Part shown: positions 9,253 to 47,320 of the stretch, piece after piece | How positions within the stretch are numbered: position 1 is the first letter of the stretch | How the letters are laid out: the number at the start of each line of letters is the position of its first letter | NCBI GenBank assembly: GCA_044892505.1 | Contig: CM097883.1 | Span: 227,726,001-227,790,000, forward strand | Length of the DNA: 64,000 nucleotides | Direction: 5' to 3' | DNA from: Schmidtea nova | Lineage: Eukaryota | Translations under genes and position numbers: made by a program | Notes under the pieces: model-generated | Told to the model about the DNA's origin: nothing | Seen by the model: only the letters and a program-made list of their open reading frames with translations | Databases searched by the model: none

Positions 9253-10346
9253 AGTAGACAGAAATGTCCACCATGAGTCATACTTAAACAAAGACATATG
9301 ACTCATCGATGATTCATAACAAAGACAACGAGTCACCCTACCCCCGCCCCGATGACTAATTTTCTTTGTTATGACTCATCGATGACTCATTTTAAATTTG
9401 AATTTCCAAAGGTCAAATAAGGTCAAACCTTCAAACAAGGGTATCATTCGAAAAGTATTTGAGAGGTAAGTATGTTGGTCATACCCACGAAGGTGTATGG
9501 TGGGTGCTCAACCTTCAAAGGGTGCAAAACCTTCAAACTTTTTCAAACCTTGTGTGTATTATATCAAACAAAAGGTATTGGAGATGTGCACACAATGGTC
9601 ATACCTTCGAAGGTCTATGGTGGGTGCTCAACCTTCAAAGGATGCAAAACCTTCAAACTTTTTCAAACCTTGTGTGTAATATATCAAACAAAAGCTATTT
9701 GAGATGTGCACACAATGGTCATACTTTCGAAGGTCTATGGTGCGTGCTCAACCTTCAAAGGGTGCAAATCCTACAAACATTTTCAAACCTTGTGTGTATT
9801 ATATCAAACAAAAGGTATTGGAGATGTGCACACAATGGTCATACCTTCGAAGGTCTATGGTGGGTGCTCAACCTTCAAAGGATGCAAAACCTTCAAACTT
9901 TTTCAAACCTTGTGTGTAATATATCAAACAAAAGCTATTTGAGATGTGCACACAATGGTCATACCTTCGAAGGTCTATGGTGCGTGCTCAACCTTCAAAG
10001 GGTGCAAATCCTACAAACATTTTCAAACCTTGTGTGTAATATATCAAACAAAAGGTAATTGAGATGTGCACACAATGGTCATACCTTCGAAGGTCTATAG
10101 TGCGTGGTCAACCTTCAAAGGGTGCAAAACCTTCAAACTTTTTCAAACTTTGTGTGTATTATATCAAACAAAAGGTAATTGAGATGTGCACACAATGGTC
10201 ATACTTTCGAAGGTCTATGGTGGGTTCTCAATCTTCAAGGGGTCAAAAACCTTCAAAGATTTTTAAACATTACAAGTTATATATCAAACAAAAGGTAATT
10301 GAGAGTTGAGTATGATGGTCATATTCATGTGTGTTGTAACACTCCG
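9253..10346 (+). mobile_element. Polinton-type terminal region (left), homologous and inverted to 32610-33473
   Basis: Starts AGTAGACAG, matching the reverse complement of CTGTCTACT ending at 33473. Followed by an ATGA(G/C)TCAT cluster and the same 120-bp repeat family. Runs into an N-gap at gttgtaacactccg. Confidence 0.7.
9475..10314 (+). repeat. Tandem array of seven ~120-bp units
   Basis: Unit starts (a/t)tggtcata at 9475, 9595, 9715, 9835, 9955, 10075, 10195. Several units carry the perfect 12-bp palindrome ACCTTCGAAGGT plus ACCTTCAAA half-sites. Confidence 0.97.
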
Positions 10347-11345: not shown

Positions 11346-11766
11346 GTTATAAAAACTTTACACTTAAAAAAAATAATATTAAACTTAAATTACAATAAAT
11401 TATAACATATAAAAAATTTTATAAAAATAACCAAGACAAAAAAAATATTTCATTGGTTAAATATTTAAACGAAGACAATTCAATGCCAAATTCCTTAACA
11501 AAGACAATTCATTGCCAAATTATTTAACAGAGACAAATCATTGCCAAATTACTTAACAAAGACGATTTATTGCCAAATTACTTAACAAAGACAATTTATT
11601 GCCAAAATCCCTAACAAAGACATTGCAATACCCGTGCAGTGTAAGCAACATGCTAACAAAGATATTGCAATACATATGCAAGTTAACAAAGACATTGCAA
11701 AACATATGCAAGTTAACAAAGACATTGCAATGCAGATACTAGTTAACAAATATATACATGCATACA

Positions 11767-11829
<63 letters not shown>

Positions 11830-11834
11830 TAATA

Positions 11835-11924
11835 AATAAGTAACAAAATAAGCCTTTGCTGCAAAAATAATTTTATTAAGTGAGAAAATTATTTTTGCAG
11901 CAAAGGCTTATTTTGTTACTTATT
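11835..11924. repeat. Perfect 40-bp inverted repeat with 10-nt loop
   Basis: aataagtaacaaaataagcctttgctgcaaaaataatttt (11835-11874) and its exact reverse complement (11885-11924). Confidence 0.95.
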
Positions 11925-11971
11925 AATTAATTAATTTATTACTTAATGCTGCTACCAAGGAATCACCATTT

Positions 11972-12002
<31 letters not shown>

Positions 12003-12745
12003 TTCATTTTAAAAACATTCAAGGATTAAAAATTTTTTTTTTAACAAAGACATTGTAATGCCAAAACATCTTAACAAAGACATTGCAATGCAGATACTAG
12101 TTAANNNNNNNNNNNNNNNNNNNNNNNNNNNNNNNNNNNNNNNNNNNNNNNNNNNNNNNNNNNNNNNNNNNNNNNNNNNNNNNNNNNNNNNNNNNNNNNN
12201 NNNNNNNNNNNNNNNNNNNNNNNNNNNNNNNNNNNNNNNNNNNNNNNNNNNNNNNNNNNNNNNNNNNNNNNNNNNNNNNNNNNNNNNNNNNNNNNNNNNN
12301 NNNNNNNNNNNNNNNNNNNNNNNNNNNNNNNNNNNNNNNNNNNNNNNNNNNNNNNNNNNNNNNNNNNNNNNNNNNNNNNNNNNNNNNNNNNNNNNNNNNN
12401 NNNNNNNNNNNNNNNNNNNNNNNNNNNNNNNNNNNNNNNNNNNNNNNNNNNNNNNNNNNNNNNNNNNNNNNNNNNNNNNNNNNGCAATCCATGTGCTATA
12501 TTAACAAAGACATAGCAGTACAGATGCAAGTTAACAAAATCATTGCAAGCCAGAATTACAAAGACATACATTCAATAATAATAGTAATAATAAAAGTAAT
12601 AGTAATAATAATTTAAAAAAAAACATTCAAGGTTTCAAAATTTTTAAAACTATATAAATATCATGCGAAAGATATTTGAGATGTATGTGTGTATTATTTC
12701 AAACCTTCAAGATGTCAAAATTAAATTAATTTAACTACCTCAACG

Positions 12746-12749
<4 letters not shown>

Positions 12750-12821
<72 letters not shown>
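12750..12821. repeat. (TA)n microsatellite; others at ~15080-15118, 17096-17158 and 18560-18594
   Basis: Directly visible. Confidence 0.95.
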
Positions 12822-12825
<4 letters not shown>

Positions 12826-13294
12826 CTTCCTACCCATTTTGACACTGCAATTCATGTGCAATATTAACAAAGACATTGCAATATAGATGCAAGTTAACAA
12901 AGACATGTATTGTTAGCAAGCCAGATTAACAAAGACATTGCAGTTGCAAGCCAAGTTAACAAAGACAAAAAAAATAAAGATTAATAATTAATCACAAAGT
13001 GCATTCTATTAGTCAATGCTAAAAATAAATTAAATGAAAATACTTATATTTTGTACGACATTATATGCATATCACATGATATTCATCAATATTAATACCA
13101 CAAGATTCACACTTATCAATATTTTTAATTTAATTTAATTAATTTATTATTGAAGGATTTGAATAATTTTGAAAGAATGTCGATATCGCATTTCTCAATC
13201 GAAGTCAAAAGTTCATCAAGTATTAAAAATGATTGGATCCAATTGTCCAAAGTAATGAAATTATCTGTAACCTAGTTTAAAATAATTAATTTAA

Positions 13295-18554: not shown

Positions 18555-18598
<44 letters not shown>

Positions 18599-20165: not shown

Positions 20166-20169
20166 TTCT

Positions 20170-22278: not shown

Positions 22279-22395
22279 TGATGTTGTGGTGTTGATAATT
22301 CCTAATATTATAAAAATAAACATTGTCAACCATGGATATATTATTTTTCCCTTTTTTGATTCATACACCCTTTTTGAATTCTTCGGTTTTAGTAT

Positions 22396-22758
22396 CAAGT
22401 TTTCCCATCCACCATTACATTTAATCCAACTAGTCACATACGTATTTGTCACTTTTGAGGCTTTTTCAATCCACTTTTCTGATTTGTCCGACTCCAAACA
22501 ACCATATGTGCCAATTTTTAGAACAACATAAGCTAGAACTGTTAGCACTACGTCTCTGTTCAAACCATCTTTAATTAACTCCTGAATTACTGTTTCATCA
22601 CAAAATATACTTTCTTTGACGTTACTTTGAAGTATGATTTGGAGTCGCCTTTTCATCTGTCTCGCAAGTTGTTGTATGAATTCATCTTCGCATATATTCT
22701 CTTCGTCTAGTGCATATAGTTCCATTACCAACCCCTTTAAAATCAGTTCTGTTTCCTC
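22396..22758 (-). pseudogene. Bcl-2-family-like domain embedded in the retroelement reading frame
   Basis: BH1-like ELIKDGLNRDVVLTVLAY (cf. ELFRDGVNWGRIVAFF) and BH2-like VTSWIKCNGGWENL (cf. WIQENGGWDTF) at the right spacing, followed by a basic linker and hydrophobic helix PWLTMFIFIILGII. Confidence 0.75.
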
Positions 22759-23162
22759 CGAATCATTTGAGTCTATTTTATCGAACTCGGCTACGTCGTC
22801 TTTTCCAGTTATCTCAAAATCTTTCCGCTTACGGCTGTTACGTTCATCATTACTTTCCGTTTCTAAAAAATTCGATTCGTGTTTTATCCCTTCAATAGAT
22901 ACCGGCTCGTCATTTGTATCTTTAGATTCCTGATGTACTGCATCATTTTCATCAGTCATTATTGTCATCAGTCATACTTCCTATTTGCAATTCATTCAAA
23001 ACTTTATCTTTTGACTCGTAGTTTTCTAACTTAGCTTCGTTTAATTCATTAGATATTTCAGTTTTAATTTCTTTGGACTTTATATCTTCATCTGTATCCC
23101 TTGCAATTCTAGGCCAATGCGAGACGATAGCCTCATTATCAACCATATCATCCGTTTGCTTC

Positions 23163-23377
23163 GTGGCATATACATTATTTATATAATTTGGATTACATCC
23201 ATAGTTAACTAAATATTCGTCATCGTCTAGCTCGATTCCTCTAAATGTTAATATAATATTCCCATCATTACCCATTGTCTCTGCAGACTTTCGTCGTAAT
23301 TTCGATACCATTGCGCTCCAATGCTCTTGAAAGTACTCAACTTTTCCTCCTATGTTTAGAGATATTACTAATGACTT
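23163..23377 (-). pseudogene. Ubiquitin-like domain 2
   Basis: LVISLNIGGKVEYFQEHWSAMVSKLRRKSAETMGNDGNIILTFRGIELDDDEYLVNYGC aligns by eye to ubiquitin ([20 protein letters not shown]). In frame with ORF 24694-23426 across one TAA. Confidence 0.6.
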
Positions 23378-23639
23378 CAGATTACTATCCGATTCTCTGT
23401 AATCATGTCCTAGTTTTCGTATAGTTTATTTTAATCTCGCTTGATAACTCGTCTTCTTATGAATATAAGGTAAAATGCATTCAAACAATTTCTCTTTAGA
23501 CTTTTGACTCATTTGTGAATTCAACATAGATTCAAGACATTTATTAATCTCATCTTTATCTCCAATATACAACATATCTCGCAGATCTTGCAGAGTTTCC
23601 TCCCAACTTTTAAATTCTGAATTTGAAATATTAACAGTA

Positions 23640-23860
23640 TTTATAATTCTAACCTCATTTTTGAATCCCGGGATTAAACCAAAATCGACCAAGTATTTAT
23701 CATCCCTCAGTTGACCCATTTGCGGTTGTATCAGTTCTACACTGCTTCCATTATATTTAGTCATAATAAGTCCTTTCAAGTCTTTTATTTGTCCATAAGC
23801 ATTAATAGAAAATTGAGTTCTCAAATCATTGATGTCTGTGGCTTCGACAAAAATATCATC
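23640..23860 (-). pseudogene. Ubiquitin-like domain 1
   Basis: IFVEATDINDLRTQFSINAYGQIKDLKGLIMTKYNG...LIQPQMGQLRDDKYLVDFGL aligns by eye to ubiquitin (IFVK...TIENVKAKI...[15 protein letters not shown]). Confidence 0.62.
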
Positions 23861-24339
23861 TAAATTGTTTTTGAATCGTAAAGCTCTCCCAAATATTCTC
23901 ATTAGTTTGGCAATTCTGTCATCTCGATGTGCGTTGTAGGACTTAGCACATAGGTTCAATATACTTTTCAATTTTCTTGGACTGAGTGACATTCGGCTTA
24001 GCTCTGTTATCCACTCTTTCAATCTTGGATTGTTTCTTTCCATCCTTGCGAGCCATCCTTCCACTTTCTTTATCAATAACGTAGCCTTTTCATTCAACAA
24101 CTCATCTTTTACTTTATTAGCAAAATTTCCTTTCACTTCTGATACATTTTCATATACCATAAAGAAGTCTGCTTCATCATCCGATTCGAATTTGGACATC
24201 AACTTGTTTAATTTCTGTCTCATTTCCCGAAATTTATTTTCCATTTTTTCTTTGAACTCGTCTTTTTGAGCATAAGCTACATTGGCATTGGACGATTCGT
24301 CTTGAAATCTAATTGATTTCTTTAGGATAGGTCTTCCAA

Positions 24340-25415
24340 ACCTTTCCGAATTTCTTGGGCATGATCGAGCCATGTGGCCATAACTTTTGCATGAATGGCA
24401 TTGAATGTGTCCATTGGCATTCACTTTTTCTCGTTGCGATGAAGGAGATGTGGAGGGTGATCGAGTTCTTGAAAAGCAATTTCTGCTAATATGGCCCATT
24501 TTTCCATATCGATAGCATTTAATGTCAACATTGTTTGGATTGTTTTCCATAAAATTTCTTTTGGGACTAATATTTCTGCCATTTTTGAACCAACATTGAT
24601 TTGAATAATGTCCGACCTTCTTGCAATACTCGCATGCAATATTATTCGATCTCTCGTTGGTCTGATTACTAAAGGTTGCTGCTATTAATTTCAAATTTAT
24701 TACCTAATCTTGGAGAGCTGTTTGGTTGGATTGGTTTCTTTGATTCCCATTGATTCTTTACTGGAGTTATTGATCTTTCTCGTTTATCAACATTGATGGC
24801 AAATACGTCAGACTTTTGGGTGCTTTCTAAATTCAATTCCATCTTCATTGCTTTTCTCACCAATTCGTCAAAATTCGAAAAATCCACGTAACACAATGCC
24901 TTTTTGATTTCAGGATGGGCTCCCGTTATAAACTGATCTTGAAGCAGTTCTTTGACTTGTTTCATCATTTCAACTTGCTCAGGCTTTATTTCGAATACTT
25001 TATCTGCTAAAATAGTTAAATGGTAGGCGAACTCACTTACCGATTCATTTGGATTCTGCACTTGATTGTAAAACTTTTGTTGCATTATTCTTTTGCCATC
25101 TCCTCCCACCAATTTCATCGTCATTGCATCTTTTAATTTGGCCCAATCATTTCCAACTGTCTTTTTATCAACTTGCTGACAAGCTTCTCTCGCAGCTCCC
25201 TTTAGATATAATGGAAATCTTTGTGCCATAATGGCTTCTGACCACCCATATGCTGAAGCGTACATATAATAATCACCCATAAAATCAGCAAATTCTACTG
25301 GGTCTCCTCCATATTGATTCACCGGCAACTTTTGGCAACTTGCGAAATCAATAATCTCGGCATTCTCTTTAGCCATATTGATTATTTTTCGGCTTCTCAA
25401 GTTATACTCGCTCAA
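24340..25415 (-). pseudogene. gag: Gag (capsid-like plus three CCHC zinc knuckles), one frameshift at ~24680
   Basis: YGGDPVEFADF...FPLYLKGAAREA...QNPNESVSEFAYHL...DQFITG; CEYCKKVGHYSNQC, CYRYGKMGHISRNC, CHSCKSYGHMARSC. Confidence 0.92.
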
Positions 25416-25543
25416 CTCTAAATATTAAGTATCGATAATTAATAATTTATACCTTTTTAACGACTTTCCCACAATTTTGCTTTCAAAATTCGCTTTTTAT
25501 TACCTCACTATTCCTTTTTAGCGTTTTCTTTCTCCGACTTTGG

Positions 25544-25561
25544 ATCACGTCGGGCTCACCA
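25544..25561 (-). promoter_or_regulatory. Primer-binding site, tRNA-Trp type
   Basis: TGGTGAGCCCGACGTGAT matches the well-known tRNA-Trp PBS TGGTGACCCCGACGTGAT at 17/18 positions. Lies 6 nt inside the LTR end (cccaata). Confidence 0.85.
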
Positions 25562-25567
25562 AAAATA

Positions 25568-26600
25568 TATTGGGTTTAATTAAAACAGATATTATCGTCG
25601 GTGCCTGACTCCTCGTGTTCAAACAAATCAGTAAGTAATAACACTCCCAATGTATATTTGTTTAGATCGACACAATCTTTTTACAATTCACAGCAATAAT
25701 AATACAACGTCCTAATTATTCGATCGAGCTCCGCCGTGCGATGTGGTGACCTCGTGCGCTCTATAGCAATAATCACTTTGCATATCAGAATCCTCTGGAT
25801 TGATCTCTTTTTCTTTAATAATTTCGCCTTCCTTTGAATCAGCTCCTTTTTAATTTCTTTACTCTTTTTCTCTCGTATTTTCCTATTTCTTCTGACTCTG
25901 CTACCTTTAACCTAATCTCGTTTTCTTCTCCCTAACGATTGTTTTCAATTTAGAGTTTCCTTATATAATAAGATAATCATTTTGATTAATTAGTAATTTG
26001 GCCAAATCGCCTCTGTCTGACAATGCTTTGACAATCATTTTTCTTGAATATCGTCTGAGAGCTTATAGTGATTGATTGCCCTCTTCTGTTACCCTTTCGT
26101 ATTAACCAATTTGTTTACTCCTATTACTCATAATGACAGGATAATGGCTTTTCCGAAATCCGCTTTGTTTACTCTCCTTGTTTGCCGAGCTCGGGTTTTC
26201 TTCATCTCTCGGGTTCTCCATTAGCTCGGGTTTCCCATTCGCTCGGGTTTTCCATTATCCAATTAATTAATTAATTAATGGTTTTTTTTGTTTTTGTGCA
26301 TATGTATGCTTTCCGACCCTTTCTGAACATTTTCTGACCGATTCCTAATCATTATGTTCTTCACCAATAGCTAATCTATACCTGTCCTGTTTTCTACATT
26401 CAATTTCGATAAATTAACCATTTATTCATTTTTCTTAATTTGCACATTTGCATTTCGAATTTCACTGTACCATATCCTAACTCTGTTTCCCTTATAATTT
26501 CCTTGGTTATTCGTTCTGTGCTTGATCACACTTCTCCATATACCTGTTTCATTCAATTTTCATCTAGAATTTCATTTAAAATTTTATTTATAATTTTATT
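25568..26600 (-). mobile_element. 5' LTR of the env-bearing element (outer end truncated or uncertain)
   Basis: Ends cccaata next to the PBS. Contains 4x ggaaaacccgag-type repeats shared with LTR pieces at 8.2, 33.6 and 53.3-53.5 kb. Confidence 0.6.
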
Positions 26601-26850
26601 TAAAATAATTTTGATTTAAAGACCTTAACACATTAATAGCATTTGTTTTCAATGAAGGCAATATTTTCTGATCTTTCATGATAACGTCTTTGGCAGTTTT
26701 CATTCCAAAACTAACTAATCGCTTAAGTATTGGAAGTGCAAATTTACCAATAGTTTTCAGCCAACCTGATCCATACTGTTTACCTACAAAATACGGTAAT
26801 TCGCCACCAGCTTGGCTATTACTGTACAAAGAAACTATATCAGGATTATG
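26596..26850 (-). pseudogene. Polinton/adintovirus small core-like protein, 3'-truncated
   Basis: QAGGELPYFVGKQYGSGWLKTIGKFALPILK matches the conserved QxGG-xLPxF-G...GxG...FRxAxPxLK pattern of Maverick/adintovirus virion proteins. Confidence 0.7.
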
Positions 26851-27860
26851 TATCGCTTTTTCGAAAATGTAGAGTCAAATGAGTTTTTGAATTTTTTGGA
26901 AAGTTTATTAAATTACCTCTATCGTCTCTGATATTAATTTCTATATTGTTTATACAAGACGTTAAAACAGTTCAATACATTGGATTTTCTACTTGTATTT
27001 GAACAACTTCATCCTGTTCATGTTTTTTAATCCATACCGATTTTACCATGGGAACTAATGAATCGCCAACAATTATAGGATTGACTATTATACTGTAAAT
27101 GAACATTTGTTGATGAAGTTTAATTATTTTCGGTTTATTTATTCCTATATTTAAATATCCATTTTGAGCGTATGTTGCTTTCGCTAGTCCTAACGTTTGT
27201 ACGAGGTTTCTGTCAAAAGTAATTTCACTAATATCAGGATTCAAACTGAATATGAAGTAAATATCATCTATCAATTCCAATGATTTAAAGATACTTGCAC
27301 AATTTTGAATCATATATGATTGCATTTCATCCAATTTCGATATGTATAAGTTATCTTTAAATGTATATACAAAATCAGTATCAGCCTTGAACTCCATCTT
27401 GAATCTAATTTTTCAAATCTTTCGCCAACTTTGTTATATTTAGGTAACGGTATCTTGTAGGACTTTCAGAACTCTGTTTCGGTAATCATAATCTTTTTGC
27501 CATTGCCAAAGTATCAAATGTTATTGTGAAGGGATAATGATCACAGGTGAAATAAATAGAATTCTTATCGCTAGACATTTGAGCAATATCATCGGCAGGA
27601 TTAGATATATCAACTTCATTTTGTAGATTGTCAATAACCAAATTATTTTATTTGGAGTGCAAAGTTTTCATTTTGTATCGAATTTCAGCTTTACTATAAA
27701 ATGGAAATGGATTATAGACAAATGTAAAGTCTAATAGAGCGACTTCCCAAATACCGTCTAAATAAATCGGATTTTGTAGATTGACCATGAATTTACTGGC
27801 AGTATTTTCTGGATCTATATCGGGACAACTGTTGCTAGGTAAAACAATATAAAAATTCAT
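26846..27860 (-). pseudogene. Minor capsid protein (penton, single jelly-roll) of Polinton/adintovirus type
   Basis: N-term MNFYIVLPSNSCPDIDPENTASKFMVNLQNPIYLDGIWEVAL; C-term MFIYSIIVNPIIVGDSLVPMV...IEINIRDDRGNLINF...LTLHFRK. Premature stops and one frameshift. Confidence 0.85.
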
Positions 27861-28888
27861 TTTACTAGGTTTTTTGATGATATCCATGATGGTTCTTTAT
27901 ATCCATGCCACTTGACATAGTATTGTTTATCTTTATCAATATTTTTTGAATTCTAAATATTGTCGGCAGGGGAATAACTTGCAATTCTTGTTCAAAGAAT
28001 TTTCCACTGACTATATTGTTATCAGAGTCAGAAATAGTATACATGACAGGATTCTGGACTGTGTTGACATTCGATATTTTAAAAACCTCATCACTCCAAT
28101 TACTATCAAAGTTTTTAATGAATGGCGATTCACTAATTTTACTAATTTGAACATGATCACCAATTTTATATTTTGGTTTCTTTATTTTTATATCACTCAA
28201 GATATTTTCAGTATCAACTACTTCAGCAGGTTTCTTGCCATTTATACCTCGATGAGCAGAATGATTATAACTATGAATCATTTGTGGTAAAACATTAATC
28301 CATGTTTTATTCCTTTGATGCAGAAAATACTTTTTGAGACGATCCCTCAAGGTACGATTAAATCTTTCAACATGGGCTGCTTTGAATTGAGAGAATACCG
28401 AGTAATGATTGATTCCCTTTATGGCTTCCTTGACTTTACTGTTGTAAAATTATTTGCCTAGATAAATAAATATCATTTTATAAAAAATTTATTAGCTTAC
28501 CCAAATCAGTTTGTAAATTATTTGGACGTCCACCTTTGAACATTGTTTTGATTGCGATTTCCATATCATTGGCAGATTTAGATTTTACTGGAACAGCCCG
28601 AGCAAATCGACTGTAAACATCAATACATGTTAAAATATATTTGTATCCCTTGTTAATTTTTGAATAGGGAATCATTTCCATCAAATCTATTTGCCACAAA
28701 TCATTAATTCTATATGTTTTGTATGCTCGTGTCGGAAACCTTTTCAGCATAGGTTTGTTTAGACTGTATGCAAGTTGCCCCGAAAACCAACTTTGAGTTT
28801 GTCTTTTTGAATTCGATACATATTTCCTTAGCTTTTTGACTCCACCAAAACCTGCTTCGTGCTTTGGGTTCGTCCATATCTTCTCCAT
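27857..28888 (-). pseudogene. Polinton c-integrase (rve, DDE) with C-terminal chromodomain, interrupted by a 43-nt intron
   Basis: WQIDL...YKYILTCIDVYSR, LQTDLG|K*FYN, HVERFNRTL, FDSNWSDEVFKI, YYVKWHGY...SWI. Removing 28500-28458 restores the frame. Confidence 0.92.
28458..28500 (-). other. Spliceosomal GT-AG intron (43 nt) in the integrase
   Basis: GTAAGC...tatttatttatcTAG. Splicing joins GAT TTG G to GC AAA (T/G)AA TTT TAC AAC, giving the conserved TDxGxEFxN motif. Confidence 0.8.
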
Positions 28889-28943
28889 TACAGCAAGAAG
28901 ATTTAAAGTTTAAATTAAGATTAGGCAATGATTGACCCATTGT

Positions 28944-29290
28944 TTATGACCTTTTTCCTAATAAACCAGCACCTCTCAATAATGATAATGCTAATGGTAA
29001 CAATGCTGCAATAAACCCTCCTTGTTGTTTATATATTATTTTACGCATTAGTTTTTTATTTTTTGTTTTTACAAGTGAGAAAAAATGCTTCTTGTGTTTG
29101 TTCAAAACTCTTCTATTGGATGCACTTATTGATTTTACCTCTAACAACTTTATTTAAAATCGTTAGTAAATCATCAATAACGTAATTAGGAAACGATTGT
29201 AAAATACTCATTCTTCTAATACTTGGGGCTTTAAGTAATGCATTGAAAAATGGGAAACTACGATGATGTATTTGTTTTGCATTTGGTTTG
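28944..29290 (-). pseudogene. Conserved small basic Polinton/adintovirus protein with C-terminal QQGG-F amphipathic peptide, frameshifted
   Basis: FFNALLKAPSIRRMSIL...VIDDLLTILNKVVRGKI joined by frameshift to RRVLNKHKK...KQQGGFIAALLPLALSLL. Confidence 0.7.
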
Positions 29291-29489
29291 TAAGTATTTT
29301 GAATACGATTATCCTTTATGAATATTATCAATAAATAATTGTTTAGATGGTGTAAAACTAGTTTTCGAAACTGATTTCTTTGTTTTCTTTGGAACTTTTT
29401 TTTCCCCGGTTTCTTCATTTTTCTAGCCTTTATCAATCGCTCAAACTTTACTCGAGATTTCAATAACATTATTGAAAATATACAATTAA

Positions 29490-30113
29490 TCAACTTTGTT
29501 TATAAACCATGGCTCCTTCCTTGTTGAAAATATCTGTTCTAACTCTTAAATCATCACTACATTGTTGTGTGAAATCAAGAAAAAGATATCCATGAGGAGC
29601 TTTTGTAGCATCTTGGAATGCATCAATCAAGAAATTTCGATTAGAAGGGTGTGCTTGTCTTGCAAGAAAGTCAATAACTTTTGCTTCTCTAGGATTTTTA
29701 AAAACAACAAGATATTGAACATTCAAATTCCGGGTTCGATGATTGTCGCCCTGATGAAATAAATTCTGAGTAATAAAAATAACTGTAACACTTTTGAGTC
29801 TAGCGAGTTTTGTAAATAAATTGTTAAAATCCTTTTCTTTATTTGCTTCTTGATACAAATCATCAATAATAATCACATCCCCTTCTCTTAATCTAGATGA
29901 CCAATTTTTATCGAAACCTTTTATGATTGTCATTTTTATTTTACAAAATTGGTCTTGAGTCATTCCATGTTCCTCATCTGCACCCCTATGCCAATAAATT
30001 TTATTAAACTTTGATTTGAATAATTTTGATTGTAATAATTTACAAACAAATAAAGTTTTTCCACTCCCGCTCGGTCCAACAATTCGAAACACTGCATCAT
30101 TTCCTAATTCCAT
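29490..30113 (-). CDS. A32/FtsK-like DNA packaging ATPase (Polinton/adintovirus)
   Basis: Intact 207-aa ORF. Walker A GPSGSGKT, Walker B VIIIDD, IFITQNLF, RTRNLNVQYLVVFKNPR, HGYLFLDF. Confidence 0.93.
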   Translation of the reverse strand: MELGNDAVFRIVGPSGSGKTLFVCKLLQSKLFKSKFNKIYWHRGADEEHGMTQDQFCKIKMTIIKGFDKNWSSRLREGDVIIIDDLYQEANKEKDFNNLFTKLARLKSVTVIFITQNLFHQGDNHRTRNLNVQYLVVFKNPREAKVIDFLARQAHPSNRNFLIDAFQDATKAPHGYLFLDFTQQCSDDLRVRTDIFNKEGAMVYKQS

Positions 30114-30204
30114 ATTTCTTATTTTATTAATTAATTATTATTGTTTATATTTGTTTTAAATAATAATTGTTTTTATTATTGTCATATTTAAAATATTTTC
30201 ATTA

Positions 30205-30666
30205 ATGATTAGCAACATAAATTATAAGGGTAAGACTGATGTATCGCACATGAATTTTCCTAAGGGGAAACCACAACAAATTGTAAATAGAAGTGGTAAA
30301 TATCCGATAATATATTTTAAGACCGGGAGATTTAGAATTATGGGATGCAAGGAATTTATTAGTGATGAAAGGGTTTACGACTTAACAATACAATTGATTA
30401 CTGTAATTGCAGATTGAGGATTTATTTGTGATTTAAATGATTTGGCTAAATTAATAGAATGTGTTTACGAGCCAGAATTATTTCCAGCTTTGAGATATGC
30501 AAAATATAACCCCATGTGTGTTAATATATTTACAAGTGGTAAAGTAGTTATATTAGGTTTAAAAACTAGGGACTATTTAAATATAGTTGATAATATAATT
30601 ATGGATATAAAATCAATTATTGAAGATAAAGCCTTTGTTGATTTCATATTATCGTGTGACTCATGA
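30205..30666 (+). pseudogene. TATA-binding-protein-like gene (two-repeat core, ~153 codons) with one in-frame TGA at 30415-30417
   Basis: Repeat 2 YEPELFPALRY...VNIFTSGKVVILGLK versus TBP YEPELFPGLIYR...LLIFVSGKVVLTGAK. Repeat 1 IIYFKTGRFRIMGCK versus LIFSSGKMVCTGAK. The two track ORFs are in one frame. Confidence 0.8.
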
Positions 30667-30698
30667 TTGCAATAAAGATGCAAAAGAAATGCATGATT

Positions 30699-30804
30699 CT
30701 GATTGGTTCAGTATGTATTTCGATAATAAAGACATGTTATGCATACTCAAATCTGATTGGTTGATTGCGTGTTTCATTTTCTTGCGTGTTCTTTGGTATA
30801 TATA
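30699..30804 (+). promoter_or_regulatory. Pol II-type promoter: two CCAAT boxes and TATA
   Basis: CTGATTGGTT at 30699-30708 and 30753-30762, TATATATA at 30797-30804, ATG at 30839. AATAAA at 30671 just after the TBP-like stop. Confidence 0.5.
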
Positions 30805-30838
30805 CAATGAACATTTTACATTCATTTATTATTGTACA

Positions 30839-31427
30839 ATGTGTCTCAAAGCAACTTTGGTGAAATATGGTAAAGTTTTAAATTTATCATTTATCATTTT
30901 TATAATATTTATTTACAGATAAATTTATGGCCGTACTGTTCGGCAAAATGGAGGAGATGTTTCCAAGCCTGATGTTCAAACTAGTCTACACGGCTCCGGA
31001 GACGCTCCCAATCAAAATCCTTTCAATCACTAGCAAGAAACACGAACACAATGGCCAAACTCTACTCCAGAAGATGAGTCCGAATGTGTTCAAAATACTA
31101 CTGATTCTCCAAATCATTCTCCTTCAGAATGCCCAACTCTCGATGGGCCATATCCTCTCGAATCTGATAAGTCGCAACAATGCGATCAGTCGGAACAATG
31201 CGATCAGTCGCATCATTCGCAAGAATCGCCAGAATCGCCGAATTGCGATGAATGTTATCGTTAAGTCGATATGGACACTGCAGAATAAATGTTTTATGTG
31301 TTTAGTTTCTATGTGTCGTCATTTTTATATATTTTCATTTTTGTTATTATTTAATAAATGTATTTATGTTTTCGTTTTTATTTTATTTTATAGTAAAATA
31401 AAAGTAAATATCAAAGTTTTAAAGTAA
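30839..31427 (+). CDS. Hypothetical accessory gene, possibly spliced (49-nt intron 30870-30918); true frame ambiguous
   Basis: ATG30839...TATG|gtaaag...tttacag|AT puts exon 1 in frame with ORF 30927. An overlapping frame encodes an S/P/Q/E/D-rich peptide with AT-biased codons but has stops. Confidence 0.35.
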
Positions 31428-31779
31428 TGAAGTTTTCTATGCAAATAAGTATTTAAGTTTTAAAGTAAAATAAGATATAATTAAATTTGTAATTATGTTT
31501 TAATGTAAAAGTTTCTGTGATATGTTTTAAATTATTTATATAACTTAAATATGATAAAAACACAATAATTAAAAATGATAAATACATTTATTAAACACAT
31601 ATGCAGACATACAACAAAGGCACACACACATACATGCACGTTACAAAGACATGCATGCATGTACGTTACAAAGAAATGCATATAATGTGCAGTTAGAATG
31701 CATCATTTTGATTGGACAAAGACATTACTCATCACTATAGATACAAAGAGATTTTTAAGATATTGTCACAATTTAAAAA

Positions 31780-32196
31780 ATGCCAGCACGTAAATCAGCT
31801 TATGATATCAGTGAAAAAAGAAAAATCAATAATGAAGTCAAACCGGTTCAAATGTATTACGATTACAAAATATATTTCTTAGTACAAGAAATACCGTTTC
31901 GTTTGTCGTATCCAGTGAAATTAACAAAGTCTTTCTATGACAATTTAGCTGCAAATTTAAGTAATGAAGATGTTGTTGCACTAAATAAAATTTTATTCAA
32001 AATCAATAACAATTTAAGTTGCAAGGAAACTAAATGGATCAACAATCGAAAAACCCGTTTCCATGATGCTTTCCAATCAAACGAATACAAGGATCAAGAA
32101 AATTGGTTTATTACCATAATACTTCAGGGCTATAAAATCGATACAAAGGATGTTATAACTCCAATTTGGAGAATTGACAGTGCGCGATATGCATAA
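31780..32196 (+). CDS. Hypothetical 138-aa protein of the Polinton-like element
   Basis: Clean ATG-to-TAA ORF with protein-like composition, upstream GATTGG box (~31709) and downstream AT-rich 3' region. Confidence 0.6.
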   Translation: MPARKSAYDISEKRKINNEVKPVQMYYDYKIYFLVQEIPFRLSYPVKLTKSFYDNLAANLSNEDVVALNKILFKINNNLSCKETKWINNRKTRFHDAFQSNEYKDQENWFITIILQGYKIDTKDVITPIWRIDSARYA

Positions 32197-32609
32197 ATGT
32201 TATTTTATAAATGTTATTTAATAAATTTTAGTAATTTACATTTAAGTTTTTGATTGCTCTTTTTTTTATAAGGTTTTTATAAAATTTTTATAAGTTATAT
32301 AAGTTANNNNNNNNNNNNNNNNNNNNNNNNNNNNNNNNNNNNNNNNNNNNNNNNNNNNNNNNNNNNNNNNNNNNNNNNNNNNNNNNNNNNNNNNNNNNNN
32401 NNNNNNNNNNNNNNNNNNNNNNNNNNNNNNNNNNNNNNNNNNNNNNNNNNNNNNNNNNNNNNNNNNNNNNNNNNNNNNNNNNNNNNNNNNNNNNNNNNNN
32501 NNNNNNNNNNNNNNNNNNNNNNNNNNNNNNNNNNNNNNNNNNNNNNNNNNNNNNNNNNNNNNNNNNNNNNNNNNNNNNNNNNNNNNNNNNNNNNNNNNNN
32601 NNNNNNNNN

Positions 32610-33473
32610 GCGGGGTGTTACAACGTGCGTGGAATGCATACTGTTATTTGTCTTAAAGAACAATGGAAGAAGAACGCGCGTGAAACGAGTGTTCAATGCG
32701 TACTGTAATTTCTATTATACAACAAAGAAGAAGAACGCGCGTTTCACGTGCGTTCAATGTGTACAGTAATTTGTCTTAAACAAACACACACACGCAAGTT
32801 ATCTGTGTACAAAAATTATTATTAACAGTTATATTTCATTAGTCTTTGTTTCGTTGCATTCACTTTGCAAAGTCTTTGTTAATTTGCACGTGTATTGCAA
32901 TGTCTTTGTTAATATTTGTTTGTGTTGATGAGTCATACTGATGAGTCATGTAGATGAGTCATACCAATGATTCATACTGATGAGTCATGTAGATGAGTCA
33001 TACCATTGAATCATGTCGATGAGTCATTAAGAAAACAATTTAATCCTCAAGGATATGACCATCATACTCACCTTTCAATTACCTTTTGTTTGATGTACAT
33101 ATTATAAGGTTTGAAAAGATTTGAAGGTTTTGGACCTTTTGGAGGTTCAGGACCCTCCATACACTTTCGAAGGTATGACCATCATGTGCACCTTTCAATT
33201 ACCTTTCGGATGATATGTATATTATAAGGATGGAAAAATGTTGAAGGTTTTTGACCCTTTGAAGGTTCAGGACCCTCCATAAACCTTTGAGGGTATGACC
33301 ATTGTATAGATCTCTCCAAGACCTTATCTGACCTTTGGAAATTCAAATTTAAAATTTGAAATGAGTTATCGATGACGTCATAAAATTCAAATTTGAAATT
33401 AGTCATCGATGAGTCATTGATGACGTCATTGTCTTTGTTTAACGATGACTCATGGTGCACACTCCTGTCTACT
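32610..33473 (-). mobile_element. Polinton-type terminal region (right end)
   Basis: Ends CTGTCTACT (AG...CT ends are typical of Polintons). Contains two 120-bp units (33063-33302), a 13-bp array and three 30-bp units homologous to 9253-12970. Confidence 0.75.
32928..33027. promoter_or_regulatory. 13-bp-period array of AP-1-type sites
   Basis: Eight units at 32928, 32941, 32954, 32967, 32980, 32993, 33006 and 33019. Six are perfect ATGAGTCAT and two are variants. Confidence 0.7.
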
Positions 33474-40131: not shown

Positions 40132-40763
40132 AGTGGAAGGAGTGTCAACTGCAGATACAAGAGGTCTACCTTTTAAAGGATTTTTGTGATCTTTAGGTAA
40201 CATAGTCATATTACTAGGTAAAGGCTCACTGCAGTTGCATTTTAAAAGTAAATCTTTGATTTGAAGGTTAATTTGTTTATTTGCAAGTGTTGAAAGTTTC
40301 TTATTGTATAAAATCTGAGTTGATGCAGGTAAGATTATTTTGTTTATCGGTTCATAGTTCGAGAGATGTTCTTCAAATAGAGTATTGTATTGTTCTGTGT
40401 CAAGAGCAATTAGTCGATTTGTTTTATCTGATGGAAGAATTGTGAAGTCTTTGGAATTCTTAATTTTCTTTATGTTTGAAGTGAAAGAATTTTGTGTTGA
40501 GCAATGTTTTTGAAGAAAGATAATTTGTTCTTTGACTAAAGTTTTGACTTTAGTTTCTAAAAAGCTGATTTTTTCTTCAAGTTCAGTCGAAAAGACAGGC
40601 ATATTTGGATATGTTCTACGATTTGGATCCAGAAGATGATTGTGCTTTTCAGCTAAACTTGAAGATTTGGTGGATGAAATTGGTTTTAGATGGTATCCTA
40701 TTTGTCTTCTTAGGCTTATAAGAGAGGCGTTAGTGATGACTTCGGCTTTTTCTAAATCTTTTT
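40132..40763 (-). mobile_element. Inverted duplicate of the Penelope ORF 5' part (copy of ~41272-41911)
   Basis: ORF 40602-40030 is nearly identical to 41420-41910 and lies head-to-head with the main copy. Confidence 0.92.
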
Positions 40764-41825
40764 TCTAAATAGTATATTAGCCGACGCCCATCACCGAGTA
40801 GATCTATCGTTATTTTATAGTCTCAAAATCATCAAAATCAAATCACACTTACATTTTTTAAAAGAATGCAAAAGAAGAAACATCATTCCCGTGAGCCTGA
40901 CTGTTACCAACAAACTGGAATCAACCTATCCATCTTTACAAGCATTGAAGCTTAAGGAAAAACAGGAAAAAGAATGGCTTAAGCTTAGCATATCAGCTTG
41001 TTACAAAAAGCTAAATGAATTTACTAGTTTTACTTGTGCTCCTCTTACTTGTGAAGATAATACTTGTTGCCAGAATTTCTCCAAAAATCTCGACATTCGC
41101 AAGCATAAAAAATTAGAAACGCTACTTTCAACAAATTCAAACAACACTAAAGACACTAACTCACACTCAAATTCAATTCTTCCATTTACAAACAAATCTA
41201 ATCACATTTTTTCAAAAACACAAGAAAACATCCTCGCTCTAGGGACCATCTTTTGTTCCTCCACCTAACCAGAAAGATTTAGAAAAAGCCGAAGTCATCA
41301 CTAACGCCTCTCTTATAAGCCTAAGAAGACAAATAGGATACCATCTAAAACCAATTTCATTCACCAAATCTTCAAGTTTAGCTGAAAAGCACAATCATCT
41401 TCTGGATCCAAATCGTAGAACATATCCAAATATGCCTGTCTTTTCGACTGAACTTGAAGAAAAAATCAGCTTTTTTAGAAACTAAAGTCAAAACTTTAGT
41501 CAAAGAACAAATTATCTTTCTTCAAAAACATTGCTCAACACAAAATTCTTTCACTTCAAACATAAAGAAAATTAAGAATTCCAAAGACTTCACAATTCTT
41601 CATTCAGACAAAACAAATCGACTAATTGCCCTTGACACAGAACAATACAATACTCTATTTGAAGAACATCTCTCGAACTATGAACCGATAAACAAAATAA
41701 TCTTACCTGCATCAACTCAGATTTTATACAATAAGAAACTTTCATCACTTGCAAATAAATAAATTAACCTTCAAATCAAAGATTTACTTTTAAAATGCAA
41801 CTGCAGTGAGCCTTTACCTAGTAAT

Positions 41826-43310
41826 ATGACTATGTTACCTAAAGATCACAAAAGTCCTTTAAAAGGTAGACCTCTTGTATCTGCAGTTGACACTCCTTCC
41901 ACAACACTTTCTAAAGTTCTTTCAGAAATCCTAAAAACACTTTTGCCTTTGGTTCCTTCTCATCTTAAAAACACAACTGAATTCGTCTCCGAAATTACAA
42001 ATACGTCTCTTCCGTTAAACGCAGGACAACAGTACTTCTGGGGATCTCTTGACGTTTCCAATCTTTACGGATCTATTCCTCTTCACGGAGAGAATAATAA
42101 TTTCGACATCGCAGCTTCTTTCTTTGAAACTCATAAAGCCAATACTGACCTCGCTGACTTAACTAAACAAGACTTTATAGAACTTCTAAAATTAGCAATA
42201 AATTCAGATACTGTCATAATTAAAGAAAAACCATTCAAACAAATTCATGGATTAGCCATGGGTAATAACCTTTCTCCCATCTTAGCCATCTTCTACATGA
42301 ACTTTATAGAATCTAAGATCATATCTTTTTTTGGGGACAAAATACTTTTCTGGAAACGATACATCGACGACATCTTCATAGTCTCCACAATCTCTCTCAA
42401 TCAAATCTTATCACACGCAAATTCTACTAACACCAACATACAATTCACTTTTGAAACACCGAACACAGAAGGTAAAATACCGTTTTTAGATACCATGGTA
42501 AGTTTCACAAAAGGCCAAAATACACTAAATGCAAACACCGAGCTATATTCTAAAAGTTTACATAGCGGTCATATCCTCCCATGGAAAAGCCACGTTCCAC
42601 TTCAACGCAAAATCGCATTACTAATAGGAGAAAGAAAAAGAGCCATAAGAAACTGTTCAGACGCAAACAAAATACAAGAAACATTAGAAAACTTCAAAAT
42701 ACGATTCCTCCAAAATGGATACCCTGAAGAATTTGTAAAGAAACACTTCCTTAATGAACCATACCACAATAAACGCAACAATAGGAAACGCCAGAAACAC
42801 AATAACAATAACAAACACACAACATATCTAAGATTACCTTTCCTAAATGACACTACAGCCAACAAAATCACCAACATTTTTAATCAAACAGATTTGCCTA
42901 TCCACATCCGTCCAACGTTCATAACCTCCGCACCGTTAAAATCACATCTCCGAAAGCCACCAATTTCCAACATCTCCAAACATAAATGTCTTTGCTGTTT
43001 CACAACCCGATGCTTTTGCTTTTCCAAAAACATAGTATATAAACTTTCTTGCCAAAAATGTGACGCTACTTACATAGGAGAAACACATAGAACTTTTCGC
43101 ACCCAACTTAATGAACACACTAAAATCAAAACCAGTAATTATTACGAACACTGGGAGAAAGTACATAAAACAACTCCATCTATAGAAGAAACAAAATGCC
43201 AGATTCTACAAGAGGGATTCAAAAATTCATTACAAAGATTAGCTTCCGAGACTTTTTTCATAAAAAAATACAAACCGTCCATCAACATTCAATTCGCACA
43301 AAAAAATTAA
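41826..43310 (+). CDS. Penelope RT-GIY-YIG open segment (494 aa)
   Basis: Uninterrupted RT core and GIY-YIG domain as listed above. Confidence 0.9.
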   Translation: MTMLPKDHKSPLKGRPLVSAVDTPSTTLSKVLSEILKTLLPLVPSHLKNTTEFVSEITNTSLPLNAGQQYFWGSLDVSNLYGSIPLHGENNNFDIAASFFETHKANTDLADLTKQDFIELLKLAINSDTVIIKEKPFKQIHGLAMGNNLSPILAIFYMNFIESKIISFFGDKILFWKRYIDDIFIVSTISLNQILSHANSTNTNIQFTFETPNTEGKIPFLDTMVSFTKGQNTLNANTELYSKSLHSGHILPWKSHVPLQRKIALLIGERKRAIRNCSDANKIQETLENFKIRFLQNGYPEEFVKKHFLNEPYHNKRNNRKRQKHNNNNKHTTYLRLPFLNDTTANKITNIFNQTDLPIHIRPTFITSAPLKSHLRKPPISNISKHKCLCCFTTRCFCFSKNIVYKLSCQKCDATYIGETHRTFRTQLNEHTKIKTSNYYEHWEKVHKTTPSIEETKCQILQEGFKNSLQRLASETFFIKKYKPSINIQFAQKN

Positions 43311-43399
43311 AATAAATTTTTTCATCCAATAAAATCATTATAAAATATTAAAAAAATAATTAAGGCTACTATTTCGGATTAAGTAAATATAACGATAGA

Positions 43400-43441
43400 A
43401 ATACACACTTGATAAAGGCTGTGCCGAAATATTGTGTTATT
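43400..43441 (+). ncRNA. Minimal type I hammerhead ribozyme, U3-A8 variant, in Penelope pLTR
   Basis: atacacac-TTGATAA-a-ggc tgt gcc-GAAA-tatt-gtgttatt. Further copies at 47370-47410(-), 47863-47905(+), 48161-48203(-), 50608-50649(-), 50661-50703(+) and 63374-63416(-). Confidence 0.7.
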
Positions 43442-43487
43442 GTTTATAAAAAAAAATTTTGATCTATAGTCATTATGAGAATTATTG

Positions 43488-43557
<70 letters not shown>

Positions 43558-43757
43558 TAATAATATTATAAACTATGAAAAAATGGAAATTTATTCAAAT
43601 AAAAAAAACGACATCATATTTTATAAAATATTTTTGCAATATATTTTGACAGCTCATCATCAGGCTTTAAACTAATTCAATAAAACAAATTAATCTTATA
43701 CATTTATTAGTGGTTACATAATCACATGTGCACAAAACAATAAATCTTTTATTAACC

Positions 43758-44069
43758 TTAGTGAAATATTTTAAAGATTCTCAAAATACATGTATATATT
43801 GCATTTTGTATGTTAATTTTAGGATATAATAAATTCCGCACGTTCAAAATAATTTTTAAAACCAATAAACAATATTTTGAAATTAAAAATATCAATGTTT
43901 TTATGCATGTCTCATTATTCTTTTCGCTCTTTTTAGTATGTTTTTGAACTTGTGTACAGAGATGATGGACAGTCTTTCCAGGACATGTGGTATTAAATCC
44001 ATTACAACTAAAACGATATACGAGATCAAAGCACAGAACAAATGTCGTCACAGATTTGTTACTGAACAT
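43758..44069 (-). pseudogene. Degenerate GIY-YIG domain of a second Penelope-like family
   Basis: LVYRFSCNGFNTTCPGKTVHHLCTQVQKH resembles the VVYKFxCxxCxxxYIGKTxRHLxTRxxEH consensus. Confidence 0.55.
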
Positions 44070-44230
44070 ATGCAGAACTTTACAAGACTTAGAAATTATT
44101 TTAACATTAATATTTTCAATATTTTTTCAAATTGATTTTCTAAATTCTACAAATAATAATAAAAATAATAACAACAACAATAATAATAAGAAAAGCTTGT
44201 GATTTTTTGTGATACCCAGTGTAAATCCCC

Positions 44231-47200: not shown

Positions 47201-47320
47201 ATTGATTAATTCGCCATTTTAAATTTGTTCGAATAAGACAAATTATTACGCGAGCAGCTTTATTTGAATATATTTTAACAACAACAAATCTTTAATTATT
47301 AACAATTATTATTATTATTA

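What the first reader, a model, noticed from the sequence alone, without database searches (positions are those of the whole stretch)
32840..33473. Viral terminus packed with AP-1, CRE and Sox/TCF-type sites
Seen: eight 13-bp-period units (six perfect ATGAGTCAT), two ATGACGTCAT (33372, 33420), more AP-1 sites (33409, 33445) and 30-bp units with AACAAAG. The left terminus has four perfect AP-1 sites (9273, 9298, 9371, 9382) and CCCCGCCCC. Established: TGA(G/C)TCA is the Jun/Fos site, TGACGTCA the CREB/ATF site, and (A/T)(A/T)CAAAG an HMG-box site. Inference: a stress- or wound-responsive enhancer could reactivate the element, and dispersed copies could donate such enhancers to host genes.
Basis: partly seen in the sequence, partly recalled or inferred. 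Interest (0 to 1): 0.7.

Follow-up and report, generated by a model that had tools for sequence, protein, structure and literature searches.

The report
Stress-factor sites at endogenous virus ends
The ends of a broken, integrated Maverick/Polinton-type DNA virus in an animal genome, probably a planarian flatworm, are packed with binding sites for the host's Jun/Fos/ATF stress-signalling factors, which may let the element switch on in wounded cells, though that response has not been shown.

Summary
Every motif listed is present at the stated coordinates and is far above chance: 8 AP-1 and 2 CRE sites against 0.23 and 0.015 expected, 0 of 2000 shuffles. The region is the end (AG…CT, 33473) of a decayed Polinton/Maverick-type element. 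Integrase, A32 ATPase and penton genes lie beside it across a scaffold gap, in a probable planarian genome.

The 'left terminus' (9253) is homologous but not shown to be the same insertion: no target-site duplication, 75–82% identity in the 120-bp units, three gaps between. It is better read as a second lineage. Both ends keep six bZIP-type positions, with AP-1↔CRE swaps at two. In the 13-bp array the half-sites are invariant while spacers diverge. This favours selected host-bZIP sites, though motif columns are not better conserved than their neighbours in the terminal core (p=0.73).

Most likely it is a host-bZIP/Sox enhancer and possibly an auxiliary replication origin, like adenovirus ITRs and baculovirus hrs. 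Wound-responsiveness is plausible but untested. Enhancer donation to host genes has no support here. This copy is broken. I found no such description for Polinton ends in three literature searches.

The parts
33320..33473 (-). Terminal core of end B. It begins AGTAGA on the minus strand and has six bZIP-type positions at 21, 45, 57, 68, 93 and 105 bp from the end (AP-1 33445, CRE 33420, AP-1 33409, 1-mismatch 33398, CRE 33372, 1-mismatch 33361). AACAAAGAC lies at 35 bp from the end; nuclear-receptor-like AGGTCA half-sites are near 33320-33337.
33049..33302 (-). About 2 copies of a 120-bp subterminal unit, homologous to the 7-copy array of end A (75-82% identity); one TCF-type TTCAAAGG (label recalled)
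32927..33030 (.). 13-bp-period AP-1 array, 8 units with a 39-bp higher-order repeat; both half-sites intact in 8 of 8; absent from the assembled part of end A
32841..32913 (-). Three 30-bp units with AACAAAGAC (Sox-type HMG core, label recalled)
32610..32783 (.). 61-bp repeats with ACGCGCGT palindromes, and a 10-bp motif (32615) shared with end A (10333); both contigs break within a few bases of this motif
32307..32609 (.). Scaffold gap separating end B from the viral genes
9253..9424 (+). Terminal core of homologous end A: six bZIP-type positions at 21, 46, 57, 100, 119 and 130 bp from the end; GC box at 9342 inside an internal inverted repeat; 128 of 139 aligned columns identical to end B
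9476..10315 (+). Seven 120-bp units (first six 92-100% identical to each other); 6 TTCAAAGG sites
11468..12967 (+). 29/30-bp units with AACAAAGAC, oriented like those of end B relative to the terminus (interrupted by gap 12105-12483)
29490..30113 (-). A32-type genome-packaging ATPase, open frame
   Evidence: Pfam Pox_A32 E=7.7e-5, 22.7 bits vs cutoff 22.8; 542 relatives, best 84% identical, nearly all listed ones carrying PF04665
27865..28909 (-). rve-type integrase, broken into two frames
   Evidence: Pfam rve E=2.3e-8 for the 28481-28909 piece; rve_3 E=0.017 for the second piece
26858..27863 (-). Minor capsid (penton) gene, frameshifted between about 27489 and 27412
   Evidence: 484 relatives; tblastn mapping; an intact relative folds like mavirus, Sputnik and adenovirus pentons
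26596..26853 (-). Small basic ORF after the penton; possible virion core-type protein (inference)
   Evidence: Atlas look-alikes at 0.92 in viral and eukaryote clusters, one with Preplasmiviricota commonest; recognition score below threshold, so a weak lead
30160..30666 (+). TBP-like gene with one internal stop, divergent from the ATPase
   Evidence: Pfam TBP E=3.4e-12; 44 short relatives; PDB TBP hits
31780..32196 (+). 138-aa ORF of unknown function pointing towards end B
   Evidence: 0 of 2 candidates significant; Atlas hits all under 0.9; DUF4411 E=2.7e-4, below cutoff

Best explanation
32610-33473 is the terminal repeat of a decayed Polinton/Maverick (adintovirus-like) endogenous DNA virus. 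Its motifs are selected binding sites for host bZIP dimers (Jun/Fos/ATF/CREB class), paired with a repeated Sox-type HMG site. Proposed working: (1) host bZIP factors, activated through MAPK/JNK signalling in wounded, stressed or differentiating cells, bind the 6 terminal sites and the 8-unit array [sites shown; binding inferred]; (2) the cluster opens chromatin and acts as an orientation-independent enhancer on the element's internal promoters, such as the divergent ATPase/TBP-like promoter about 3.3 kb in, since neither end has a TATAAA box and the nearest genes point towards the end [anatomy shown; activity inferred]; (3) the outermost sites may also assist initiation of protein-primed replication [inferred from position]. 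Ends A and B are most likely from two lineages of the family, joined here by nesting, deletion or scaffolding. This copy is defective and could at most be transcribed or be acted on in trans.
For: Enrichment 0/2000 shuffles, which survives collapsing the array. 14 of 14 perfect cores in the two ends have the symmetric A…T flanks, against 1 of 7 elsewhere in the window. Six bZIP-type positions align between ends A and B; two are AP-1 in A and CRE in B through a single central indel, the change that exchanges one bZIP site class for the other. In the first 39-mer of the array 0 of 9 core columns vary against 4 of 4 spacer columns (p=0.0014), and half-sites are intact in 8 of 8 units. The core is better conserved than the 120-bp units (128/139 vs 190/239, p=0.0012). 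19 of 21 AACAAAGAC in the window lie in the two end regions, all pointing inward. Viral genes. Precedents: ATF and SP1 sites in adenovirus ITRs (PMC2794291); CRE/TRE clusters in baculovirus hr enhancers (PMC13513840). Host biology: fos-1 and jun-1 wound-induced in planarians (PMC5515462); CRE/TRE motifs gain accessibility after injury in Hydra (PMC8049744); some Hydra Mavericks share the early expression cluster of jun/fos/creb (PMC13465017).
Against: Inside the terminal core, motif columns are not significantly better conserved than other columns (33/35 vs 95/104, p=0.73). Only two copies could be compared. The two CREs of end B may descend from one event through an internal duplication (48 bp apart; a 37-bp periodicity at 33345-33417). 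Two positions in each core carry a mismatch. Symmetric flanks and strong self-folding (z=-6.7 for A, -4.1 for the array, -2.0 for B) are also what palindrome-driven amplification would give. End B is on a different contig from the viral genes, and both ends break at the same motif, so the scaffold link is soft. No binding, accessibility or expression data. Planarian motif presence correlates poorly with regulation, and planarian TF motifs are not experimentally verified (PMC10558129). AP-1 also serves differentiation and constitutive enhancers (established knowledge), so 'wound' is not implied by the motif.
Confidence: 0.6

Rival explanations
1. The terminal sites work mainly as an auxiliary replication origin: host bZIP and HMG proteins bend and load the end for the terminal-protein/polymerase complex, as NFI and Oct-1 do in adenovirus, and transcription enhancement is secondary.
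For: The first sites sit at 21-29, 35-43 and 45/46-54 bp from the end in both copies, just inside a conserved first 20 bp. In HAdV-A31 the core origin is at 9-18, NF-I at 25-38 and the putative NF-III site at 46-55 (PMC2794291). The core is the best-conserved part. Baculovirus hrs are both origins and enhancers.
Against: The positional parallel may be coincidence. It does not explain the 8-unit array 450-550 bp in, or the 30-bp units up to 3.7 kb in. No polymerase gene is present here to examine.
Confidence: 0.2
2. The motifs are a neutral by-product: short palindromes copied by slippage and template switching during strand-displacement replication of a hairpin-prone end, and the match to bZIP sites is incidental.
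For: Tandem periods of 13/39, 30, 37, 61 and 120 bp; strong self-folding, including an internal inverted repeat in end A; null result for motif-versus-flank conservation in the core.
Against: Spacers in the array are nearly randomised while cores are fixed. Of 64 odd 7-mer palindrome classes, TGA-N-TCA dominates (5, 2 and 8 copies in core A, core B and the array; the next class has 1, 3, 0). Both the 7-bp and the 8-bp bZIP forms occur at aligned positions. End B folds only weakly (z=-2.0).
Confidence: 0.1
3. The repeats are recognised by element-encoded proteins (integrase, terminal protein, packaging ATPase or an accessory DNA-binding protein), for example as packaging or integration signals.
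For: Strictly oriented subterminal repeats (19 of 21 AACAAAGAC) suit a packaging or end-recognition signal. The element carries its own TBP-like gene and an unassigned 138-aa ORF. Adenovirus packaging repeats near the genome end are a recalled precedent, not tested.
Against: No bZIP or HMG domain was found in the element ORFs scanned (not all short ORFs were scanned and part of the element is missing). The palindromes match host AP-1 and CRE consensus exactly. A similar bZIP + AACAAAG cluster lies outside the element at 54345-54460, which suggests a host grammar. This rival is more credible for the 30-bp and 120-bp units than for the bZIP sites.
Confidence: 0.07
4. The cluster has been co-opted as a wound enhancer for a neighbouring host gene at this locus.
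For: AP-1 motifs are common to regeneration-responsive enhancers (PMC10232395).
Against: Flanks are mariner, Gypsy and Penelope-type debris; no host gene family was recognised among the ORFs scanned (31, 30 and 87 ORFs; short exons could be missed). Planarian Polintons are piRNA targets with repressed chromatin (PMC8532177).
Confidence: 0.03

Closest known systems
Polinton/Maverick (adintovirus) terminal inverted repeats
   Same: End motif AGTAGA resembles the (AGT)2 and (AG)3 motifs of vertebrate Mavericks; TIR length within 46-1447 bp (PMC8097293) for the assembled parts; integrase, ATPase and penton genes adjacent.
   Different: The two ends here are not a matched pair and have no TSD; polymerase, major capsid and protease not found. 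Dense AP-1/CRE content of Polinton ends was not found described.
Adenovirus ITR (core origin, NF-I, NF-III/Oct-1, SP1, ATF sites)
   Same: Related protein-primed linear dsDNA virus; host-factor sites directly inside the terminal origin, including ATF and GC-box sites (PMC2794291).
   Different: HAdV-A31 has a single ATF-type site and uses NF-I/NF-III next to the origin. Here 6 bZIP positions start 21 bp from the end, plus an 8-unit array and Sox-type repeats; the element is integrated.
Baculovirus homologous regions (hrs)
   Same: Tandem-repeat cis-elements of an invertebrate dsDNA virus with clustered CRE/TRE motifs that act as enhancers and origins (PMC13513840; Landais et al. 2006 seen only as a reference there).
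   Different: hrs are internal, dispersed in a circular genome, built on 30-bp IE1-binding palindromes and mostly CRE-like; here the sites are terminal, mostly perfect AP-1, and no viral transactivator is identified.
Regeneration-responsive enhancers with AP-1 motifs (fish, fly) and injury-opened CRE/TRE peaks in Hydra
   Same: Clustered AP-1/CRE motifs combined with a tissue-type factor motif (PMC10232395; PMC8049744).
   Different: Those are host enhancers with functional data; this is a viral repeat with no functional data and no host gene in view.

Membership tests
Polinton/Maverick (adintovirus) | Retroviral-like (rve) integrase | tested here: met
   Pfam rve E=2.3e-8, gene broken into two frames
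Polinton/Maverick (adintovirus) | A32-type packaging ATPase | tested here: met
   Pox_A32 E=7.7e-5 at the cutoff; 542 relatives, nearly all listed ones with PF04665
Polinton/Maverick (adintovirus) | Single jelly-roll minor capsid (penton) | tested here: met
   Intact relative P0166 (44-51% identical to the two window pieces), model pLDDT 93.5: mavirus penton 6g41 E=9e-8; Z=12.9, rmsd 7.0, 236 aligned; Sputnik 3j26_N Z=13.1
Polinton/Maverick (adintovirus) | [quoted passage not shown] | tested here: inconclusive
   No hit in the ORFs scanned, but the gene block ends at about 26,590 against a Burro-like retroelement and three N gaps lie between the ends
Polinton/Maverick (adintovirus) | Double jelly-roll major capsid and maturation protease | tested here: inconclusive
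   Not found in the assembled remnant; same truncation and gaps
Polinton/Maverick (adintovirus) | Terminal repeat with AG…CT end motif | tested here: met
   AGTAGA at 9253 and TCTACT ending at 33473; 5 of 6 bases match (AGT)2 (PMC8097293)
Single intact Polinton insertion (ends A and B as one pair) | Near-identical TIRs and a 5-8 bp target-site duplication | tested here: not met
   120-bp units 75-82% identical between ends, large indels; no 4-8 bp TSD with the ends shifted by up to 2 bp
bZIP (AP-1/CRE) enhancer | Clustered consensus sites above chance | tested here: met
bZIP (AP-1/CRE) enhancer | Sites conserved beyond tandem amplification | tested here: inconclusive
   Positive in the array (p=0.0014) and by aligned positions in two lineages; null inside the core (p=0.73); only two copies
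bZIP (AP-1/CRE) enhancer | Factor binding, open chromatin, site-dependent activity | not testable with these tools
   No ChIP, ATAC or reporter data available
Regeneration/wound-responsive enhancer | Injury-induced accessibility or activity | not testable with these tools
   Only circumstantial literature
TE-derived (co-opted) host enhancer | Linked host target gene | tested here: inconclusive
   No host gene family recognised in the ORFs scanned; short exons and long-range targets not excluded

The most novel reading that the evidence does not exclude
Planarian Polintons are wound-gated endogenous viruses. Host Jun/Fos/ATF dimers sit where adenovirus places NFI and Oct-1, directly inside the terminal origin, so that injury signalling switches on both transcription and protein-primed replication of the element in regenerating tissue, where neoblast-derived cells offer a route to inheritance. 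An element-encoded TBP-like protein would complete a partly self-supplied transcription system. Dispersed ends would form a ready-made family of wound enhancers held down by PIWI.
Probability: 0.18. Interest if true: 0.78.

Novelty: new variant of a known kind. Interest (0 to 1): 0.42.

Why it matters
What triggers expression or replication of animal Polintons/Mavericks is poorly documented in the passages read; the elements are described as characterised mainly in silico (bioRxiv 2023.08.22.554363). A terminal cluster of 14 optimal-looking bZIP sites names a specific host trigger (MAPK/JNK to AP-1/ATF) and a condition (injury) in which to look for element RNA, episomes or particles. That can be tested at once on existing planarian injury ATAC-seq and RNA-seq data. 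The principle itself, bZIP sites in viral terminal or repeat enhancers, is known from adenoviruses and baculoviruses, so the surprise is moderate.

Tried and rejected
(1) Ends A and B as one insertion: no TSD, lineage-type divergence; rejected as unproven. (2) Better conservation of motif than non-motif columns in the core: null, p=0.73. (3) The cluster at 54345-54460 as a third copy of the end: no blastn hit; local alignment scores only slightly above shuffles (0-21 of 300 reach them), explained by shared short motifs; not treated as homologous. (4) Homology of the 61-bp repeats to 10665-10900: 34 of 300 shuffles reach the score; not supported. (5) TCF reading of the 30-bp units: the CCTTTGAW form is not enriched in 32840-33473 (1 observed, 166/2000 shuffles) but is enriched in end A's 120-bp units (6 observed, 0/2000; tandem copies). 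(6) Structured RNA: 0 Rfam matches in the window. (7) Element-encoded DNA-binding partner: ORF 31780-32196 gave no relatives and no Atlas hit at 0.9 or above. (8) PDB sequence searches for the ATPase (best E=0.43) and the penton profile (0 hits) were uninformative; the fold search settled the penton. (9) The sigma-70 scan is irrelevant to a eukaryote and at background. (10) PMC11410931 had no Polinton passage. Paper supplements were not read; TIR sequences in them or in Repbase could bear on novelty.

Full report
OBSERVATION. The 13-bp array at 32927-33030 has 8 units, 6 of them perfect ATGAGTCAT. The two CRE 10-mers (33372, 33420) are the only TGACGTCA in the window. AP-1 sites at 33409 and 33445, minus-strand AACAAAG units, the four left-end AP-1 sites and the GC box at 9342 are as stated. 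Against 2000 dinucleotide shuffles of 32840-33473, AP-1 is 8 vs 0.23, CRE 2 vs 0.015 and AACAAAG 4 vs 0.20, none reached by any shuffle; the looser WWCAAAG is 5 vs 0.75 (2/2000) and is common elsewhere, 109 in 59,409 bp. Collapsing the array to one unit leaves 5 sites in 543 bp against 0.064 expected (region chosen after the fact).

CONTEXT. The window is 30% GC, has ten N gaps and consists of transposon debris. At 19338-25424 lies a Gypsy fragment with gag, zinc knuckle, a Bcl-2-like domain (E=0.0013, below cutoff), a Monjiviricetes-type fusion glycoprotein and RT. This domain set matches the planarian Burro elements (PMC6431247, passages), so the host is probably a planarian; this is inferred, not confirmed. 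At 26596-30113 on the minus strand are an A32-type ATPase, a broken rve integrase and a frameshifted gene whose intact relatives fold like mavirus, Sputnik and adenovirus pentons. A TBP-like gene with one stop runs divergently from the ATPase. No polymerase, major capsid or protease was found. One search covered 19 frames from 26500-32306, where one search listed 44 of 45 aa or more, so the scan was not exhaustive, but no unassigned coding stretch of polymerase size remains in the assembled sequence between the ends.

THE TWO ENDS. End B finishes at 33473 and end A starts at 9253, in inverted orientation, both reading AGTAGACAG inward, close to the (AGT)2 and (AG)3 end motifs of vertebrate Mavericks (PMC8097293, passages). 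The terminal cores are identical at 128 of 139 aligned columns, with several indels. The 120-bp units are 92-100% identical among the first six units of A but 75-82% between A and B. That pattern fits separate amplification in two lineages, not decay of one insertion. There is no 4-8 bp TSD. Three gaps, a large foldback and the Burro-like fragment separate the ends. Both end-bearing contigs stop within a few bases of the same 10-bp motif, which occurs only twice in the window. This extends the homology but also marks an assembly break, so end B is tied to the viral genes only by scaffolding across 32307-32609.

ARE THE SITES SELECTED? For: six bZIP-type positions align in the two cores (offsets 21, 46, 57, 100, 119, 130 in A; 21, 45, 57, 68, 93, 105 in B). 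Two of them are AP-1 in A and CRE in B through one central indel. All 14 perfect cores in the ends have A…T flanks, against 1 of 7 elsewhere. In the array's first 39-mer 0 of 9 core columns vary against 4 of 4 spacer columns (p=0.0014, three monomers), and both half-sites are intact in 8 of 8 units. The core is better conserved than the 120-bp units (p=0.0012). 19 of 21 AACAAAGAC lie in the end regions, all pointing inward. Against: motif columns in the core are not better conserved than the rest (33/35 vs 95/104, p=0.73); two positions per core carry a mismatch; the two CREs may share one origin; the ends fold on themselves (z=-6.7, -2.0 and -4.1 for A, B and the array); n is two copies.

MECHANISM. 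The best reading is a host-bZIP enhancer with a Sox-type partner site (factor-family labels are recalled, from no call). Neither end has TATAAA and the genes nearest end B point towards it, so action at a distance on internal promoters is more likely than a core promoter. The first three sites occupy 21-54 bp from the end, where HAdV-A31 has NF-I (25-38) and a putative NF-III site (46-55) beside the core origin (9-18), with SP1 and ATF sites further in (PMC2794291, passages). An auxiliary-origin role is therefore the main rival and may coexist. Wound coupling is inferred: fos-1 and jun-1 are wound-induced in planarians (PMC5515462, passages); CRE/TRE motifs open after injury in Hydra (PMC8049744, passages); some Hydra Mavericks fall in the jun/fos/creb expression cluster, others peak at 12 h (PMC13465017, passages). 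Planarian Polintons are piRNA-repressed and are desilenced during normal differentiation (PMC8532177, passages), so differentiation is an equally possible trigger; a SOX9/soxP-3-like motif is enriched in epidermal promoters, and motif presence alone predicted regulation poorly (PMC10558129, passages). This copy cannot mobilise by itself, and nothing in the window supports donation to a host gene.

COMPARISON AND NOVELTY. It works like adenovirus ITRs and baculovirus hrs (PMC13513840, passages including the abstract and Table 2); bZIP-regulated elements are common in dsDNA viruses (bioRxiv 2025.07.20.665756, passages). As to membership, it is a Polinton/Maverick-type remnant with three core genes and the end motif met, polymerase, major capsid and protease inconclusive, and the intact TIR pair with TSD not met. 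I found no description of AP-1/CRE-packed Polinton ends: one search returned 5 papers, none containing 'AP-1'; one search listed 20 of 50 papers, none containing 'polinton'; one search listed 7 papers, of which I opened one. The library lacks most subscription papers and Repbase, and supplements were not read. TBP-like genes are already noted in maps of related midsize DNA viruses (PMC8502044 and bioRxiv 697771, passages). Other papers seen as passages: PMC11410931, bioRxiv 2023.08.22.554363, PMC10232395. Landais et al. 2006 was seen only as a reference.

VERDICT. A real and unusually dense feature, correctly spotted, on the end of a defective endogenous Polinton-type virus. It is a new variant of a known kind of viral cis-element. 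The wound trigger is a testable hypothesis, not a result. Interest 0.42.

Noticed in passing
window 30160-30666 (+): TBP-like gene with one internal stop, next to the A32 ATPase; 44 short relatives, mostly about 145-165 aa. Four of the 14 relatives on contigs of 1.5 kb or more share an exact contig length with ATPase relatives (offset controls mean 0.2, max 2; over all 44 lengths 2 of 60 controls also reach 4), hinting that TBP plus ATPase is a conserved gene pair of this clade.
   Followed up: partly
window 54345-54460: A third cluster of AP-1-like sites and AACAAAG motifs outside the element, without detectable homology to the ends; possibly a host enhancer or another repeat using the same grammar.
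   Followed up: partly
window 9407-9424 and 33320-33337: Two AGGTCA-type half-sites 4 bp apart (direct-repeat nuclear-receptor-like element, label recalled) conserved in both ends.
   Followed up: no
window 9298-9390: Internal inverted repeat in end A enclosing the GC box; strong predicted hairpin (z=-6.7); absent in this form from end B.
   Followed up: partly
window 14532-19145: Large foldback with 1.8-kb arms at 98.7% identity, AT-rich, internally repetitive, no Pfam hit in the 5 ORFs scanned.
   Followed up: no
window 19338-26590 (-): Burro-like Gypsy fragment with Bcl-2-like and fusion-glycoprotein regions; the fusion region runs directly into the RT in one frame (19947-20942), suggesting an internal deletion; a primer-binding-site-like sequence near 25545-25565.
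   Followed up: partly
window 10333 and 32615: Both end-bearing contigs stop at the same 10-bp motif, suggesting a hard-to-assemble repeat just inside the ends that may hold more regulatory sequence.
   Followed up: partly
window 40133-50778 and 63189-64000: Several 94-99% identical copies and inverted copies of a Penelope-type element (RT plus GIY-YIG; repeats), indicating recent activity.
   Followed up: no
window 6330-7610: Mariner/Tc1-type transposon remnant (HTH hits) in the left flank.
   Followed up: no
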